A stretch of 64,000 nucleotides of DNA from Candidatus Spongiisociaceae bacterium (GTDB taxonomy: Bacteria > Actinomycetota > Acidimicrobiia > Spongiisociales > Spongiisociaceae): contig OZ253564.1 in NCBI GenBank assembly GCA_965262915.1, positions 960,001 through 1,024,000 of the forward strand, in the 5' to 3' direction. The translations under genes were made by a program, and so were the position numbers. Positions 1 through 6,125 of the stretch are shown here, piece by piece. The notes beneath the pieces were generated by a model. That model was not told the origin of the DNA. It did no database searches and saw only the letters and a list, made by a program, of their open reading frames with translations. Positions within the stretch are counted from its first letter, which is position 1. Every line of letters starts with the position of its first letter.

Positions 1-60
1 CAGCGCAAGGGCCGGGTTGATTTCACAAATCTCGAAGATGACCTGAGCGACCTGCTGTGA
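1..60 (+). CDS. 3' end of an upstream gene (partial, unknown product)
   Basis: Open frame QRKGRVDFTNLEDDLSDLL* from the window edge to TGA at 58-60. Confidence 0.35.
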   Translation, partial: QRKGRVDFTNLEDDLSDLL

Positions 61-126
61 GACTCGGGGGAGACATGCGAGGATTGGCGGTTCACCCACG
101 CGGAACCGACAGGCAAAGAGACATCC

Positions 127-432
127 ATGGCTGACAGAGACCTCATCGCATTCACGACGAAGAAAGAATACGCCGTCCAACTCCTGCGGGAGTTGGTGAT
201 CTCGGGCGAACTCCGATCCGATGCTCGCGTGCTGCAGCCAGACATCGACGAGGAGCTCGGTGTAAGCGTCACTCCGGTTCGGGAGGCGATCAGGCAACTC
301 GAGACGGGGGGCTACCTGGAGTCGACTGCTTGGCCCACGCTGCGGGGAGTTTGCGTTAGATCATCGGGCGTTCGGCCTCGGACAGGTGATCGGTCACGAT
401 TTTCGTGGATCGGGAGTTGGGTAATCGGATGA
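127..432 (+). pseudogene. GntR-family regulator, truncated (wHTH only, no effector domain)
   Basis: LRELVISGEL..EELGVSVTPVREAIRQLETGGYL is a GntR wHTH; similarity is lost after ~codon 66. Confidence 0.7.
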
Positions 433-442
433 GGGTTGTGAT

Positions 443-1465
443 ATGAAGTCTTTGCCTGACGCGGAGTCTGTCCCTCTTCGTGGTGGACCGGTGCTGCGTT
501 GGGGGATCCTAGCGCCGGGAGTAATAGCCACTAAGTTCGTGCGGTCGTTGAAGCGTCACACCGACCAAGAAGTTACTGCAGTGGGTTCTCGGTCGCGCGA
601 GCGGGCTGAGCGCTTTGGCCGGCGGTTTTCGATTCCGCGTGCGTACGCTTCTTATGAAGCGTTGCTCGGTGATAGTGATGTTGATATTGTCTATATCGCG
701 TCCCCGCATAGCCATCATAGAGAGATGGCAGTGGCCTCACTTGAGGCTGGTAAGCATGTTCTCGTCGAGAAACCACTGGCCACTACAGCGTTAGAGGCGC
801 AGGCCATTAGCGATTCAGTAAGTATTCACAATAGGTTTGCGATGGAGGCCATGCATACGCGCTTTCATCCGAGGACTAGCGTCTTGGAAAAGTTGCTAGA
901 GGACGGTGAACTCGGGCAAGTACGAATGGTTGCAGCGGATTTGGGGGCGGTCTTCCCTGTAGATCATGGTAACCGACTCTATGATCCGGCGCTTGGGGGC
1001 GGGGCTCTATTGGACATGGGGGTTTATTCAGTTTGGTTCGCCGTCTTCATTATGGGCTTGCCAACCCGCGTTCAGTGCGTCGGAGAACTTACTTCAACAG
1101 GTGTCGATGGTCAATCCATAACTCTGTTGACCAATGAGAGTGGTCAACAAGCAGTTGCAAGTTGCAGTCTCTATACATTTGGCTCTGGAGAGGCCAGCAT
1201 AAACGGTTCGGGTGGCCGGGTCTTGATCCCTTCGCGCCATCCTGCTCCTGGTGGATTCACGCTGTATGATGATAAGAACGAACTTGTTGCGGAATACATC
1301 GATCGATCAGGCCTTCTCACCGCCGAGGATGGATTGTGCAGACAGGCGGTCTGGGCTGCCCGGCATGTCTCGGATGGTTTGACGCAGTCGCCACTGCATC
1401 CTCTGTCGATGTCTATAGATGTGCTACAGGTGCTCGATGAAGCTCGTGCGCAACTAGTGTCCTGA
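443..1465 (+). CDS. Gfo/Idh/MocA-family oxidoreductase (stop codon supplied by the IS630 end)
   Basis: RWGILAPG, GKHVLVEKP and GGGALLDMGVY motifs; visibly lower GC than neighbouring genes. Confidence 0.9.
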   Translation: MKSLPDAESVPLRGGPVLRWGILAPGVIATKFVRSLKRHTDQEVTAVGSRSRERAERFGRRFSIPRAYASYEALLGDSDVDIVYIASPHSHHREMAVASLEAGKHVLVEKPLATTALEAQAISDSVSIHNRFAMEAMHTRFHPRTSVLEKLLEDGELGQVRMVAADLGAVFPVDHGNRLYDPALGGGALLDMGVYSVWFAVFIMGLPTRVQCVGELTSTGVDGQSITLLTNESGQQAVASCSLYTFGSGEASINGSGGRVLIPSRHPAPGGFTLYDDKNELVAEYIDRSGLLTAEDGLCRQAVWAARHVSDGLTQSPLHPLSMSIDVLQVLDEARAQLVS

Positions 1466-2547
1466 TTCGGGGATTCGTTGTAGATAGTTGGTGAGGTTGT
1501 CGAAGATTTGGTCGGCGGTTTTGTGCCAGATGAAGGGTTTGGGGTTTTGGATCCAGTGTTGGGTCCATTCGTTGATGGCGTCGGTGAGTTCGGCTACGGA
1601 TCGGTGGGTGCCTCGGCGTATTTGTTTGGTGGTGAGTTCGGAGAACCGTCGCTCGACGAGGTTCATCCACGAGGCGTAGGTGGGTGTGAAATGGAAACTA
1701 AAGCGGGGGTGGCGTTGCAGCCAGCGCTGTATGGGCTCGGTTTTGTGGGGCGACGCGTTGTCCAACACGACGTGGACGTCTAGTTCGGGGGGGACTTCGC
1801 GGTTGATGAGGTTTAGGAACGTCTGGAATTCTTCGGTGCGGTTGCGTCGTGTCATGGAGGTGATGACCCGGCCGGTGGCGGTGTCGAGCGCGGCCCCGAG
1901 GTTGGTGGTGCCGTACCGGCGGTAGTCGTGGGTGCGCCGCTGGGGGGTCCGGGCAACAGGGGCAGGATCGGTGCGGTGCGGTCGAGGGCCTGTATCTGGG
2001 ATTTGTGGTCCACGCAGAGCACCACCGCCGCGTCCGGAGGGTTCAGGTACAAACCCGCCAGGTCACGGACCTTTTCCACGAACTGCGGATCGGGAGATAT
2101 CTTGAAATCTTCGGTCCGGTGCGGCTTGAGACCGAACGCCCGCCATATCCTTAGGATCGACGACTGGGACAGGCCGACGGCCCTCGCCATGGACCGGGTC
2201 GACCAGTGCGTAGCATCCGCAGGGGTCTCCTCCAGGGTCTTGACCACCACCTCCTCCACCTTGGCGTCGTCTATGAGGCGGGGAGGCCCGGGACGGGGAT
2301 CGTCGTACAGACCGTCGAGACGGCGCTGGGCGAAACGGTTCCGCCACTTGGAAACGGTGTTGGTGCTGCAACCCAGTTCGGTGGCGATGTCGACATTGGC
2401 GCGGTCTTGGGCCGCGCCTAGGACCACACGGCACCGCATCGCCAACCCCTGTGGAGTGGAGGGCCGCCGCGCCCAACGCTCCAGTGTCTCGCGTTCGGTA
2501 GCATCCAAGTCGATAACCACTGCTTTACGACCCCGCCGTTTTTTCAT
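1454..2547 (-). pseudogene. IS630 transposase split by a frameshift near 1942-1948
   Basis: HTH part (THWSTRSMA, VLCVD.KSQIQALDR) in 1852-2547; DDE part (HDYRRYGTT, VVLDNASPHK, FTPTYASWMNLVE) continues in another frame. Confidence 0.85.
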
Positions 2548-2629
2548 CAGCTGTTCCCAATATGGGCTATTACTGAACTACTTACACCATAGCAGAATAA
2601 GTCAAACGATCAAAGAATCAGGACACTAG
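1454..2629 (-). mobile_element. IS630-family insertion sequence
   Basis: Perfect 15-bp terminal inverted repeats CTAGTGTCCTGATTC (1454-1468) / GAATCAGGACACTAG (2615-2629), including the TA target; transposase lies inside. Confidence 0.92.
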
Positions 2630-2679
2630 ATGGTCAGTTCCAAGCGGTTAGTGGTCGGGGGAGCGGGAGGGACCTGCAA

Positions 2680-2694
2680 GAGTCTCCGGGAAAC
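2680..2694. repeat. Left half of an IS3-family (IS6110-like) terminal inverted repeat split by IS110; right half at 4181-4193
   Basis: Joining the flanks gives GAGTCTCCGGGAAACCCGGGGCGGTTCA, compared with the IS6110 end GAGTCTCCGGACATGCCGGGGCGGTTCA (recalled sequence). Confidence 0.7.
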
Positions 2695-2709
2695 CACTCA
2701 TACTTAAGG

Positions 2710-2895
2710 TGACCTCGACCGGGAGGGGCCTGGTCTGACCCACCGGGAAACTGGCGGTTGTGCCTTACCCCGGATCTGTCGGCTGGGCAACGGTGGGGGG
2801 GGAACGGGCAGCCAGCCCGGAGCGGATGTGACCTCATAGGAGCTTTGTTCGTTTCTCCCACACCCTGAGTGGTTTGTCCACCCGCTTCGGACCGG
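2710..2895 (+). ncRNA. Predicted IS110 bridge RNA (ends approximate)
   Basis: Guides CCGGGAAAC (2743-2751), CCCCGGAT (2768-2775), CATAGGAGC (2835-2843) and TGAGTGGTTT (2866-2875) match the element junctions and sit in loops closed by stems (e.g. 2817-2832 with 2876-2890). Confidence 0.75.
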
Positions 2896-2942
2896 CGCTG
2901 CCAGATAAGCCTATCCAACACAAATAGGGGGGCGCAGACAGC

Positions 2943-4174
2943 ATGTCAGGACGAGACCAGGTCGATGTGTATGGCGGGGTTGACACCCATCGGGATACCC
3001 ATGTTGGGGCGGTGGTGGATGCTACCGGTCGCCTGTTGGGGTCGGAGGAGTCGGGGCCGACTCCCCAGGATATGTGCAGTTGGAGAGATGGCTTCGCTCC
3101 TGGGGCCAGGTGGTTCAGGTCGGTGTGGAAGGCACCGGCAGTTACGGCGCCGGCTTGGCCCGTCATCTGACCGCAGCAGGTGTCGAGGTGGTAGAGGTGA
3201 ACCGTCCTAACCGCCAGTTGTGCCGCCTTCGGGGCAAGACCGACACCGTAGACGCCGAAGCCGCTGCCAGAGCTGCTCTTAGCGGAGCGGCCACCGCCCG
3301 GCCCAAAGCTGGGGATGGACCGGTCGAAGGAATAAGGATGCTGCGTGTGGCTCGCCGCTCAGCGGTCAAGGCCCGCACCCAGGCCGCCAACCAGATCCAT
3401 GCTCTAGTGGTAACCGCCCCAGAACAGGTCAAACACCAACTACGGGGCTTCAATCTCCGAACACAGGTCAGAATCTGCGCTCGTTGGCGTCCTGGTGAAA
3501 CACAGACCACCACCGCATACGCCAAGAGGGCACTGCGGCACCTAGCCCGCCGATACCAGACCCTCGACACCGAGATCACACAACTCGACACAGAGATCCG
3601 CCGTCTCTGCGCACGGACCAACCCGGCGCTCCTAGCCGCTACCGGCGTGGGTCCCGACTCCGCTGCCGCGCTGCTGGTGGCCGCCGGTGACAACCCCGGA
3701 CGGATGAACACCGAAGCGTCCTTCGCGGCGCTGTGCGCCCTCAGCCCCGTCCAAGCATCATCGGGACGAACAATTCGCCACCGGCTCAACCGAGGCGGCG
3801 ACCGCCAAGCGAACAACGCGCTATGGCGAATAGCCACCAACCGGATGCGCACCGAACCACGAACCATCGAATACACCCGCAGGCGTCAAGCCGAAGGCAA
3901 AACCCGCCGAGAGATCATCCGCTGCCTCAAACGGCACATCGCACGCGAGATCCACCACCTGCTCACCAACCCAACCCCAACACCGCACGGCAACGATCTA
4001 CGCCTCCAACGTCACCAAGCCCGACAAACCCTCACCGACGTCGCCCAACAACTCCAAGTCCATCCCACCCTCATATCACTACTCGAACGAGGCCTCCACC
4101 ACAACCACCAGCTCGCCACCCGATACCAGCAATGGCTCACCGACACCACGAGAAACCCGATTTGCAAAACATAG
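2943..4174 (+). pseudogene. IS110 recombinase/transposase with C-terminal XRE HTH; 1-nt frameshift near 3051-3056
   Basis: GVDTH, GVEGTGSYG and GKTDTVDA (DEDD); SPVQASSG and RLNRGGDRQAN (Tnp20 domain); N-terminus in ORF 2943-3170, remainder in 3074-4174. Confidence 0.88.
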
Positions 4175-4415
4175 GAGCATCCGGGGCGGTTCACAATAGA
4201 TCGACCACCCCGACCCCACCACTAGCCAATCGAACGTGCCCACCAACACCTCCACCACACGAATCCGCCGCAGGCACACACCAGACCGACATTCGGCCAT
4301 TATCGCTTGACGCTAGACATTCCGCTCTGCGATACTTCATCTGGACGGACACAACAGAGCTAGACACCCAGTCAGCTAGGTAGCGGTTGCGTCGTTTGAT
4401 TAGGAGGTAATCGTT

Positions 4416-6125
4416 ATGCGGGATACGTATATGCGTCGGGCACTGTTTTCTTGGTTGATCGTATTCGCTTTGGTCGTCGTAGCCTGTGGCGGTGACGACG
4501 ACACGCCACAGGCTACGACCCCTGCAGCAACGGCGGCGGTCACGACTGCAGCCGCTCCCAGCGACACATCTGCGCCCGGGACTACTTCCGCCACAGCCGA
4601 CACATCTGCGCCTACTACTGCCCCTGCCACTACTTCTGCAACGGAAACTCCTGAACCTGCAATGTCGGGTGGCACCATAATCATGGCCGAGGTGAAGGCA
4701 CCTGCCACGCTCGATCCGACCCAGACCTCGGAGACCCAGTCCGGGTTTGCCTGGCAACTCTCCTACGAGACCCTGGTTCTGGTCGCAGGGGGCGGGACGA
4801 GGATCGATCCGCTTCTCGCCACCGATTGGACAATCAGCGATGACGGGTTGGTGTACAGCTTCAACCTGCGCGAAGGCGTCACCTTCCACAATGGAGAGCC
4901 GTTCACCGCAGACGATGTCGTGTTTTCGTTCGAGCGGCTCATGAGTGACGGGCTCCCGTTCGCGCAGGCGCTGTTCCCGAATCTCGAATCAGTAGTCGAG
5001 ACGGGCCCGATGTCGGTTGACTTCATTCACTCTGCGCCGGTGGCGAGTTTCCTGCTCCAGCTCGGCGACCCGTTCGTGTTCGGGTCCGGAATCCTGAACC
5101 GGGAGGCGGGCGAAGCCGGGGACCCGAACCTCGAGATGATCGGTACAGGTCCCTTCAAGATGGTTTCCTACGATCCGCTCGACTCGCTGGTCCTCGAGAG
5201 GTACGAGGGCTACTGGGGCGACCCGGCCAAGCCGGACAGCGTCATCATTCGGTACATGCCCGAACGAACCGCGCAGTTGATTGCGTTGGTCGCCGGCGAA
5301 ATCGACATCATGGTGCCGGATGCCGACATCGCGTTGAATCTGGAAGGTCGGGGCGATGTTACGGTTCTACCGCTTCAGGGCTGTGACTACGGCCAGGTCG
5401 ATTTCAATAACGTCGGACCACTGCGCGACGTTCGCGTGCGGAGAGCGATTGCCCTGGCCATCGATCGGCAGGAGATTGCCGAGCAGGCGTATCTGGGCCT
5501 TGCCCAGCCAATGGGCTACACGAGCCCCTGCTTCGGGTGGTCGATCCCCGCTGAGGATCTCCCCTACTACACGCAGGATATCGAGGAAGCCAAGCGACTC
5601 CTCGCAGAAGCGGGATACGCCGACGGTCTGTCGATCAGGTTCAATCACCAGGCAGGCGTGAGCACGTCGAGCGATAGGGCTCAGGAGGTCATGCAGGCTC
5701 AGCTCGCCGAGGTCGGTATCGAAGTCACGATCGAGACGAACGAGTTCGGTGTGTGGCTCGATCAGTATCTGAGTGCCTTGGAGGTGGAAGAAGCGGGCGG
5801 TCCTGCGACCTACGACTTGACGACACTCCACGCCGGATTCCGGAGCAATCCGACGGCCGTGCTTCGCGTCAGAGAGGGACGACACGGCGGCGGCGTGCCC
5901 CCAGGAATCAACGAGCAGTATGCCGCCGCGAATGTCGGTTCGCCGGAGGACTACATCGACAACATCAACGAGCTCGTCCGGCGGCAGGTGGACCAGGTGT
6001 TCCCAGGTTTCAAGACCGTCGCGTTCACGATCTGGGTTGCCTTCCGGAGTGACCAGGTGACGGGGGTGGACATCGACGGCACGCTGAACAGGCGATTCCT
6101 CTTCGACGTAACTGAAGTCGGCTAA
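4416..6125 (+). CDS. ABC transporter substrate-binding lipoprotein (family 5, Opp/Dpp type)
   Basis: Lipobox VVVAC, Thr/Ala linker, LREGVTFHNGEPFTADDV and GTGPFK motifs. Confidence 0.92.
   Translation: MRDTYMRRALFSWLIVFALVVVACGGDDDTPQATTPAATAAVTTAAAPSDTSAPGTTSATADTSAPTTAPATTSATETPEPAMSGGTIIMAEVKAPATLDPTQTSETQSGFAWQLSYETLVLVAGGGTRIDPLLATDWTISDDGLVYSFNLREGVTFHNGEPFTADDVVFSFERLMSDGLPFAQALFPNLESVVETGPMSVDFIHSAPVASFLLQLGDPFVFGSGILNREAGEAGDPNLEMIGTGPFKMVSYDPLDSLVLERYEGYWGDPAKPDSVIIRYMPERTAQLIALVAGEIDIMVPDADIALNLEGRGDVTVLPLQGCDYGQVDFNNVGPLRDVRVRRAIALAIDRQEIAEQAYLGLAQPMGYTSPCFGWSIPAEDLPYYTQDIEEAKRLLAEAGYADGLSIRFNHQAGVSTSSDRAQEVMQAQLAEVGIEVTIETNEFGVWLDQYLSALEVEEAGGPATYDLTTLHAGFRSNPTAVLRVREGRHGGGVPPGINEQYAAANVGSPEDYIDNINELVRRQVDQVFPGFKTVAFTIWVAFRSDQVTGVDIDGTLNRRFLFDVTEVG

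What the first reader, a model, noticed from the sequence alone, without database searches (positions are those of the whole stretch)
2680..4193. The IS110 target is another transposon's terminal inverted repeat (IS6110-like IS3 end)
Removing the element restores GAGTCTCCGGGAAACCCGGGGCGGTTCA (28 bp). Against the IS6110 terminal repeat as I recall it (GAGTCTCCGGACATGCCGGGGCGGTTCA), the first 10 and last 13 bases are identical. The target guides cover the centre of this repeat. Inference: an RNA-programmed element that parasitises or inactivates IS3-family ends, analogous to IS4321/IS5075 targeting Tn21 IRs. Only this IS3 end survives here.
Basis: partly seen in the sequence, partly recalled or inferred. 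Interest (0 to 1): 0.78.

Follow-up and report, generated by a model that had tools for sequence, protein, structure and literature searches.

The report
IS110 element splitting an IS3 end
A bridge-RNA-guided IS110-type mobile element sits at a fixed base inside the terminal repeat of another mobile element (an IS3-family, IS6110-like end), which is a clear new example of an already known habit of this family.

Summary
A 1,486-bp IS110-family element (window 2696-4181) splits a 28-bp sequence. In the same genome that sequence occurs uninterrupted as the left terminal inverted repeat (IRL) of an IS3-family IS. It shares 23 of 28 bases with the published IS6110 repeat.

Related copies (83-85% identical) in two same-genus genomes lie at the same base and in the same orientation. 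With the window, that is 6 of 6 left junctions.

The element's 5' non-coding region has a bridge-RNA layout. A 9-nt left target guide and a 6-nt right target guide match the centre of the repeat. Donor guides match the element's own ends. Sister IS110 lineages in this genome keep the scaffold but carry other guides, and they sit in the termini of two ISL3-family ISs.

The window copy is probably dead. Its recombinase gene has a 1-nt frameshift that is also present in contigs of four public runs. It is single-copy although 9 perfect targets are free. It sits in a solo repeat with no IS3 body.

IR targeting by this family is known (IS4321/IS5075, IS1383), as is an IS110 element that targets IS3 genes (ISEc21). 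This is a new member of a known kind. That the insertion inactivates IS3 is inferred, not shown.

The parts
2680..2695 (.). Inner 16 nt of a solo IS3-family left terminal repeat (left target half, LT)
   Evidence: Exact 16-mer at 9 other genome places, each time continuing into the right half and preceded by IS3 interior. Here the upstream DNA is unrelated to IS3.
2696..4181 (+). IS110-family (IS110 group) insertion sequence, 1,486 bp, single copy in this genome
   Evidence: Pfam PF01548 and PF02371. NCBIfam NF033542 scores 161 bits against a cut-off of 140. The next best copies in the genome are 75-77% identical. No terminal inverted repeats among the 25 longest pairs.
2696..2942 (+). 5' non-coding region that encodes the putative bridge RNA
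   Evidence: Scaffold conserved across 12 related elements while the guide positions vary. No Rfam family matched.
2743..2751 (+). Left target guide (LTG) CCGGGAAAC
   Evidence: 9 of 9 identical to the top strand of the left flank, ending 1 nt before the junction. In the same structural slot, the other 7 G000 lineages carry 9-mers that match their own flanks 9 of 9.
2768..2775 (+). Right target guide (RTG) CCCCGG (2768-2773) followed by AT (2774-2775, handshake-guide position)
   Evidence: Reverse complement of CCGGGG at the right junction, 6 of 6. With AT it complements ATCCGGGG across the RE/target junction (sequence). Handshake concept from PMC11208158.
2835..2843 (+). Left donor guide (LDG) CATAGGAGC
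   Evidence: Identical to the right-end sequence 4170-4178. Lineage D changes A to G both in its right end (CGTAGGAGC) and in its guide (GUAGGAGC).
2866..2875 (+). Right donor guide plus handshake guide TGAGTGGTTT
   Evidence: 10 of 10 complementary to 2691-2700 (AAACC|ACTCA), spanning the left junction (pair I24). Relatives carry TGAGTGTTTT against their GAAAC|ACTCA.
2943..3170 (+). N-terminal fragment of the recombinase gene, up to and past the frameshift
   Evidence: ORF list. A 1-nt deletion (TT to T, near 3051) relative to 4 relatives. Contigs of 4 public runs covering this stretch list no indel there.
3074..4174 (+). C-terminal ORF of the recombinase (rest of the DEDD/RuvC-like domain plus the Tnp domain)
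4170..4181 (+). Conserved right end CATAGGAGCATC; the last C is shared with the target
   Evidence: The same 12-mer (at most 1 change) ends 26 of 31 related copies in this genome.
4182..4193 (.). Outer 12 nt (tip) of the IS3-type repeat (right target half, RT)
   Evidence: Identical in 4 of 5 right junctions; L055 has 2 changes.
1457..2616 (-). Neighbouring IS630-family element (frameshifted), not the owner of the 28-mer
   Evidence: Its own repeats GTGTCCTGATTC at 1457-1468 and 2605-2616 are flanked by TA. Pfam DDE_3 plus HTH domains. NF033545 scores 125 bits against a cut-off of 100.

Best explanation
Window 2696-4181 is an IS110-group insertion sequence. Its own bridge RNA programmed it to integrate into the centre of the 28-bp left terminal repeat of a co-resident IS3-family (IS6110-like) IS. 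It sits 12-13 bp from the repeat's tip and always in one orientation, with the recombinase gene reading towards the tip. By analogy with IS621, the inferred cycle is as follows. The element forms a circle whose RE-LE junction makes a promoter. The 5' non-coding RNA folds into a target-binding loop (LTG 2743-2751, RTG 2768-2773) and a donor-binding loop (LDG 2835-2843, RDG 2866-2872). The DEDD/Ser recombinase then exchanges strands at a shared C. Shown here: the split repeat, the fixed position and orientation in 6 copies from 3 genomes, and guide-target and guide-donor complementarity that changes together with the target across sister lineages. Inferred: the circle, transcription of the RNA, and that splitting the repeat 16/12 disables that IS3 end. 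The window copy is a relic. Its recombinase is frameshifted, it is single-copy, and it sits in a solo repeat whose IS3 body is absent.
For: The split 28-mer equals the uninterrupted IS3 IRL. Family assignments lie above curated cut-offs: IS110 NF033542 at 204 bits for the intact relative and 161 for the window ORF (cut-off 140), and IS3 NF033516 at 204 bits (cut-off 160) (Pfam). Same base and orientation in 6 of 6 left junctions and 5 of 5 right junctions across G000, G001 and G002. L036 lies in an otherwise complete IS3, and L037 lies next to orfA. In fixed structural slots, the LTG matches its own left flank 9 of 9 in 8 of 8 G000 lineages, and the RTG matches 6 of 6 in 7 of 8 (D2 is 5 of 6). 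Cross-lineage scores are lower unless the targets are related. There is donor-guide covariation in lineage D. A 10-nt RDG/handshake complement spans the left junction. It differs between the window and its relatives in step with their repeat variants. The guide rules are as published: LTG equals the top-strand sequence and RTG its reverse complement (PMC11208160, passage seen; handshake guides in PMC11208158). A TTGACA-17 nt-CATA(C/A)T promoter spans the joined ends in lineages A, B and C. The window has TTGCAA-17-CATACT at the same place (read from the junction printed).
Against: No RNA, circle or empty site was observed. Public contigs from 4 runs show only the occupied site, and contigs cannot show rare forms. 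Rfam has no matching family. The LTG match in the window is out of register by 1 nt with the crossover; in register it is only 6 of 9. The same offset occurs in the 16 A/B copies that lie in the ISL3 repeat (1 further A copy lies elsewhere), so it seems tolerated, but it is unexplained. The LDG match stops 3 nt before the shared C. Of 5 full copies, 3 (window, L055, L056) have no IS3 genes beside the repeat, so how these solo repeats arose is unknown. Nine free sites with 15 of 15 guide matches remain unoccupied in this genome.
Confidence: 0.88

Rival explanations
1. The copies at IS3 ends do not come from targeted IS110 insertion. There was one ancestral insertion, and the IS3::IS110 composite (or the repeat plus IS110) was then copied around by IS3 transposase or by recombination.
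For: Most IS3 copies in G000 carry an IS30-family insertion at one position, so nested composites do seem to multiply here. The left flanks of lineage B are closer to each other than to uninterrupted host copies.
Against: The guides in the RNA match the repeat. The six copies lie in different repeat variants and different contexts on both sides, three of them without an IS3 body. An IRL split 16/12 by 1.5 kb is an unlikely IS3 transposase substrate (inference).
Confidence: 0.06
2. The element recognises a generic GC-rich hairpin (CCGGG-AAA-CCCGG, REP-like), as many IS110 members do. The overlap with an IS3 end is incidental.
For: The centre of the 28-mer is a perfect 5-bp palindrome, so the LTG and RTG can pair with each other. 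IS110 members often target REP sequences (PMC11208160, passages seen).
Against: All 6 junctions carry the full repeat, including the 6+7 nt outside the guide footprint. In G000 the 16-mer left half occurs only in IS3-type ends. Sister lineages also sit in IS termini that are not palindromic.
Confidence: 0.03
3. The causality is reversed: IS3 inserted into or beside the IS110 element.
For: This does happen elsewhere in the genome. IS3 copy c2809 is inserted in the coding region of a lineage-D IS110 copy. IS6110 is reported to have a hot spot in IS1547 (PMC3701491, passage seen; that IS1547 belongs to the IS110 family is recalled).
Against: Here a single repeat is split into two parts on either side of a complete IS110, and no IS3 body is present.
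Confidence: 0.01

Closest known systems
IS4321 / IS5075 (IS1111 group; Partridge & Hall 2003, seen only as a reference)
   Same: DEDD-recombinase ISs that insert at one position and in one orientation inside the terminal inverted repeat of another transposon.
   Different: Those are IS1111-group elements, with subterminal inverted repeats and a downstream non-coding region, and they target the 38-bp repeats of Tn21-family transposons. This one is IS110-group: it has an upstream non-coding region, no terminal repeats, and targets a 28-bp IS3-family repeat.
IS1383, which targets the inverted repeats of IS1384 (Mueller et al. 2001, title seen in reference lists)
   Same: An IS110-family IS whose specific target is the inverted repeat of another IS.
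   Different: A different host (Pseudomonas putida) and a different target IS. I could not read the paper, so position and guide details were not compared.
ISEc21 (IS110 family; Siddiquee et al. 2024, PMC11187229, passage seen)
   Same: An IS110-group element with an upstream non-coding RNA whose natural target lies in IS3-family elements.
   Different: [quoted passage not shown] This element targets the terminal repeat.
IS621 bridge RNA system (Durrant 2024 PMC11208160; Hiraizumi 2024 PMC11208158)
   Same: Two-loop RNA, with the LTG equal to the top strand of LT and the RTG the reverse complement of RT. Donor guides match the element's ends. Handshake positions complement the partner DNA across the junctions.
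   Different: Only one shared base (C) is visible instead of a CT dinucleotide: the donor reads TC and the targets read xC. The LTG is 1 nt out of register in some lineages. The target is an IS end rather than a REP.

Membership tests
IS110 family, IS110 group | DEDD (RuvC-like) N-terminal domain plus a C-terminal Tnp domain | tested here: met
   PF01548 and PF02371. NF033542 'IS110 family RNA-guided transposase' scores 161 bits for the window ORF and 204 for the intact relative L036, against a cut-off of 140. In the window the gene is split by a frameshift.
IS110 family, IS110 group | No terminal inverted repeats; long non-coding region upstream of the recombinase gene | tested here: met
   No LE/RE inverted pair among the 25 longest of 93 pairs. 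There are 247 nt upstream (2696-2942) and 7 nt downstream (4175-4181).
IS110 family, IS110 group | Bridge RNA whose target-binding and donor-binding loops are complementary to the target and to the element's ends | tested here: met
   LTG 9 of 9, RTG 6 of 6, LDG 9 nt, RDG plus handshake 10 nt. The scaffold is conserved while the guides vary in 12 elements. This rests on sequence and folding only. There is no Rfam family and no RNA data.
IS110 family, IS110 group | Circular intermediate with a junction promoter | not testable with these tools
   Only a -35/-10-like pair across the joined ends can be read. The contigs showed no circle joint.
IS1111 group | Subterminal inverted repeats of 7-17 bp and a non-coding region downstream of the gene | tested here: not met
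   (no such pair). The non-coding region is upstream.
IS3 family (the target element) | orfA (HTH) and orfB (rve, DDE) in overlapping frames | tested here: met
   PF01527, and PF13276 + PF00665 + PF13683. NF033516 scores 204 bits against a cut-off of 160. orfA and orfB overlap in different frames. The slippery site was not examined.
IS3 family (the target element) | Imperfect terminal repeats ending 5'-TG...CA-3' and a 3-4-bp target duplication | tested here: met
   L031 has IRL TGAACC... and IRR ...GGTTCA, agreeing at 24 of 28 positions, with CCT on both sides. The duplication was checked in this one copy only.
IS6110-like repeat | Sequence identity to the published IS6110 repeats | tested here: met
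   23 of 28 identical to IR1 printed in PMC5896891. The transposases were not compared.

The most novel reading that the evidence does not exclude
A whole clade of bridge-RNA IS110 elements in this genus has diversified by re-programming its guides onto the termini of at least three co-resident IS types: IS3 and two ISL3-family ISs. Guide and handshake positions track local repeat variants. The clade lives as a hyperparasite of other ISs, and because it splits their repeats it restrains their spread, acting in effect as a natural RNA-guided anti-transposon layer.
Probability: 0.25. Interest if true: 0.65.

Novelty: new member of a known kind. Interest (0 to 1): 0.4.

Why it matters
This locus gives a clean natural case in which guide, target and junction can all be read. 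It shows an IS110-group element aimed at an IS3/IS6110-type terminal repeat. Three searches of the paper library gave me no paper describing that target.

The same genome holds 31 related copies in 8 lineages. They share one scaffold and one pair of donor ends but carry different guides. Five of the 8 lineages lie in IS termini and one lies partly so. This natural re-programming series could inform bridge-recombinase design on tolerance of a 1-nt LTG register shift, on handshake positions, and on a one-base shared core.

The junctions always keep the target's base on the left and the donor's T on the right. That fits the top-strand transfer reported in a 2025 preprint (abstract seen).

It is also a small example of ISs preying on ISs in a heavily IS-laden genome.

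Tried and rejected
IS630 as owner of the 28-mer: rejected. Its own repeats and TA flanks end at 2616-2618, which is 61 nt before the 28-mer.

GGCGGTT at 2753-2759 as a guide for the right target: rejected. It lies in the hairpin between the guides, and relatives carry GGCTGTG there.

Rfam, permissive scan of 2400-4500: 0 matches.

Looking for the ancestral empty site: a search with 4194-5400 in 5 same-genus genomes gave only 48-110-nt matches at 73-79% identity, so there is no synteny to use.

Looking for a partner repeat that would make the window site a mini IS3: none within window 1-4600. IR-IR mini elements of about 49 bp do exist elsewhere, at G002 C2:2939823-2939871 and G000 2975993-2976041. 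The origin of the solo repeat stays open.

Read laying: no joint skipping 2696-4181 and no circle joint. Because all four runs are contigs, this says nothing about absence.

An exact-match scan of genome contigs with a 24-nt stretch that includes the LTG found only the 4 G002 copies. Diverged guides such as L037's are missed by design.

The metagenome scan, structure prediction, the complex job and the large protein-database searches were not used, because the question did not need them. Supplements of the cited papers were not opened. Target tables in the supplements of PMC11208160 and PMC11187229 may already list IS3-repeat targets.

Full report
WHAT IS THERE. The window reads GAGTCTCCGGGAAACC (2680-2695), then an element that starts ACTCATACTT and ends CATAGGAGCATC (2696-4181), then CGGGGCGGTTCA (4182-4193). 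The element encodes an IS110-family recombinase. Pfam finds PF01548 and PF02371. NCBIfam NF033542 'IS110 family RNA-guided transposase' scores 161 bits against a cut-off of 140. The gene is in two frames, 2943-3170 and 3074-4174. Compared with four relatives, the window lacks one T near 3051. Contigs of four public runs from four studies cover this stretch and list no indel there. The frameshift is therefore real and not an assembly slip. The window lies in a 5.06-Mb single-contig genome (G000). This exact element is single-copy there, and the next best matches are 75-77% identical.

THE 28-MER IS AN IS3 END. The left 16-mer occurs at 9 other places in G000. At all 9 it runs straight on into the right half, 4 times exactly and 5 times with 1 mismatch. 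It is preceded by the same conserved ~60 nt, and similarity stops right after ...GGTTCA.

Read from that tip inwards, the repeated element has an orfA (PF01527) and an overlapping orfB (PF13276, PF00665, PF13683). NF033516 'IS3 family transposase' scores 204 bits against a cut-off of 160. In copy L031 the left repeat TGAACC... and the right repeat ...GGTTCA agree at 24 of 28 positions and are flanked by CCT on both sides. Many copies carry an IS30-family element at one position in orfB.

The 28-mer is thus the left repeat (IRL). It shares 23 of 28 positions with the repeat here.

At the window itself only 28-31 nt match IS3, and both sides are unrelated to IS3. The IS630-family element to the left (1457-2616) has its own repeats and TA flanks and is not the owner of the 28-mer.

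DO OTHER COPIES SIT AT THE SAME BASE? A DNA search of 41 genomes (G000 and 40 relatives) found full-length copies at 83-85% identity only in two same-genus genomes, G002 and G001. An exact scan of one genome per species with a 24-nt stretch that includes the LTG found only G002, 4 times.

All junctions have the same form. The inner repeat half ends ...GAAAC (or ...GTAAC in L098), then comes ACTCATAC...GAGCATC, then CGGGGCGGTTCA. L055 has 2 changes in the right half, and L098 is truncated and has no right junction. With the window this gives 6 of 6 left junctions and 5 of 5 right junctions, always in the same orientation.

L036 lies in an otherwise complete IS3, and L037 lies next to orfA at a contig end. 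L055 and L056 have no IS3 genes beside the repeat; L055 sits about 22 bp after the stop codon of a large host gene. G001 holds 8 uninterrupted copies of exactly the variant that its copy splits, and G002 holds IRL/IRR pairs 1,323 bp apart.

THE RNA. [quoted passage not shown] Bases next to the RTG and RDG ('handshake guides') pair with the partner DNA after top-strand exchange (PMC11208158).

In the window, the conserved scaffold is GGTCTGAC-CCA-[9 nt]-TGGC..hairpin..GCC-TTA-[6 nt]-ATCTGTCGG. It places CCGGGAAAC at 2743-2751 and CCCCGG at 2768-2773. The first equals the top strand of the repeat, and the second is the reverse complement of CCGGGG. Together they cover positions 7-21 of the 28-mer.

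CATAGGAGC at 2835-2843 equals the right end at 4170-4178. TGAGTGGTTT at 2866-2875 is a 10 of 10 complement of AAACC|ACTCA across the left junction. Relatives carry TGAGTGTTTT against their GAAAC|ACTCA.

The control is the rest of the genome. There are 31 related copies in 8 lineages, all with the same end sequences. In the same slots, each lineage's 9-mer matches its own left flank 9 of 9 (8 of 8 lineages). Each 6-mer matches its own right flank 6 of 6 in 7 of 8 lineages and 5 of 6 in D2. Unrelated pairs score 2-7 of 9 and 1-4 of 6. Lineage D changes the same position in both its right end and its donor guide.

A WIDER PATTERN. The sister lineages also sit in IS termini.

- Lineages A and B: 16 of 17 copies split the right repeat of an ISL3-family IS (...ACTGAAATC|CGATGAGCC; L058, NF033550 at 297 bits against a cut-off of 180). 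More than 20 uninterrupted copies define the empty site.
- Lineages E, D2 and G lie in the terminal tens of bases of a second ISL3-family IS (L060).
- At every junction the left side keeps the target's base before a shared C, and the right side keeps the donor's T. This is what top-strand transfer predicts (abstract of 10.1101/2025.10.25.684509; cleavage downstream of the core in PMC11208158).

WHAT DOES NOT FIT.

- In the window, and in lineages A, B and D, the 9-nt LTG match ends 1 nt before the crossover; in register the window scores 6 of 9.
- The LDG match stops 3 nt short of the shared C.
- Three of five full copies lie in repeats without an IS3 body. I found no partner repeat near the window, although IR-IR mini elements of about 49 bp exist in G000 and G002.
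- G000 has 44 IS3-type ends by a relaxed pattern. Nine of them match the guides 15 of 15 and are free. This fits a dead copy.

COMPARISON AND VERDICT. Targeting of another element's terminal repeat by this family is in print: IS4321/IS5075 into Tn21-family repeats and IS1383 into IS1384 repeats (both seen as references only). An IS110-group element that targets IS3-family transposase genes is also described (ISEc21, PMC11187229, passage seen). My three library searches turned up no IS110 member aimed at an IS3-family terminal repeat. I could not see ISfinder or the supplements.

The finding is true and well supported as a new member of a known kind. The inactivation of IS3 and any benefit to the host remain inference.

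Noticed in passing
G000:C1 copies listed (e.g. 274374-275804, 1144345-1145738); empty sites such as 312738-312790: Sixteen of 17 copies of two sister IS110 lineages (A and B) split the right terminal repeat of an ISL3-family IS at one base. One lineage-A copy (3663681-3665111) lies in an unrelated site with poor guide matches.
   Followed up: partly
L031 1998-3398 (G000:C1:53369-54769) and the other IS3 copies: An IS30-family element sits at the same position (about 1,041 bp, inside orfB) in at least 10 IS3 copies. Either it targets that site or the IS3::IS30 composite multiplies as a unit.
   Followed up: no
G000:C1:2809581-2810758: An IS3 copy is inserted into the coding region of a lineage-D IS110 copy: the IRL tip abuts recombinase codons. 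This is the reverse of the relation at the window.
   Followed up: no
L059 (G000:C1:719790-721293) and the left flanks of E/F copies: A second, divergent IS110-family element of about 1.5 kb replaces the first ~130 nt of lineage E and F copies at the same point, and it also flanks F on the right.
   Followed up: no
window 2656 and 2721: Contigs of four public runs carry GTAT after 2656 and lack 4 nt at 2721 relative to the window. Relatives also lack those 4 nt. This is a strain difference or an assembly difference.
   Followed up: no
G002:C2:2939823-2939871 (L070); G000:C1:2975993-2976041; L056 right flank: There are IR-IR mini elements of about 49 bp with no interior. The outer 11-12 nt of the repeat (CGGGGCGGTTC[A]) is tandemly duplicated beside one mini element and beside the L056 IS110 copy.
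   Followed up: partly
window 443-1465 and 1457-1468: The stop codon of the Gfo/Idh/MocA oxidoreductase ORF lies inside the IS630 terminal repeat, so the IS630 insertion replaced the gene's last codons.
   Followed up: no
L057 (G002:C2:3128500-3134400): This is a nested region: an uninterrupted IS3-type repeat lies 10 bp from a 170-nt fragment of this IS110 subtype, with a further 1.3-kb fragment nearby. It was not resolved.
   Followed up: no
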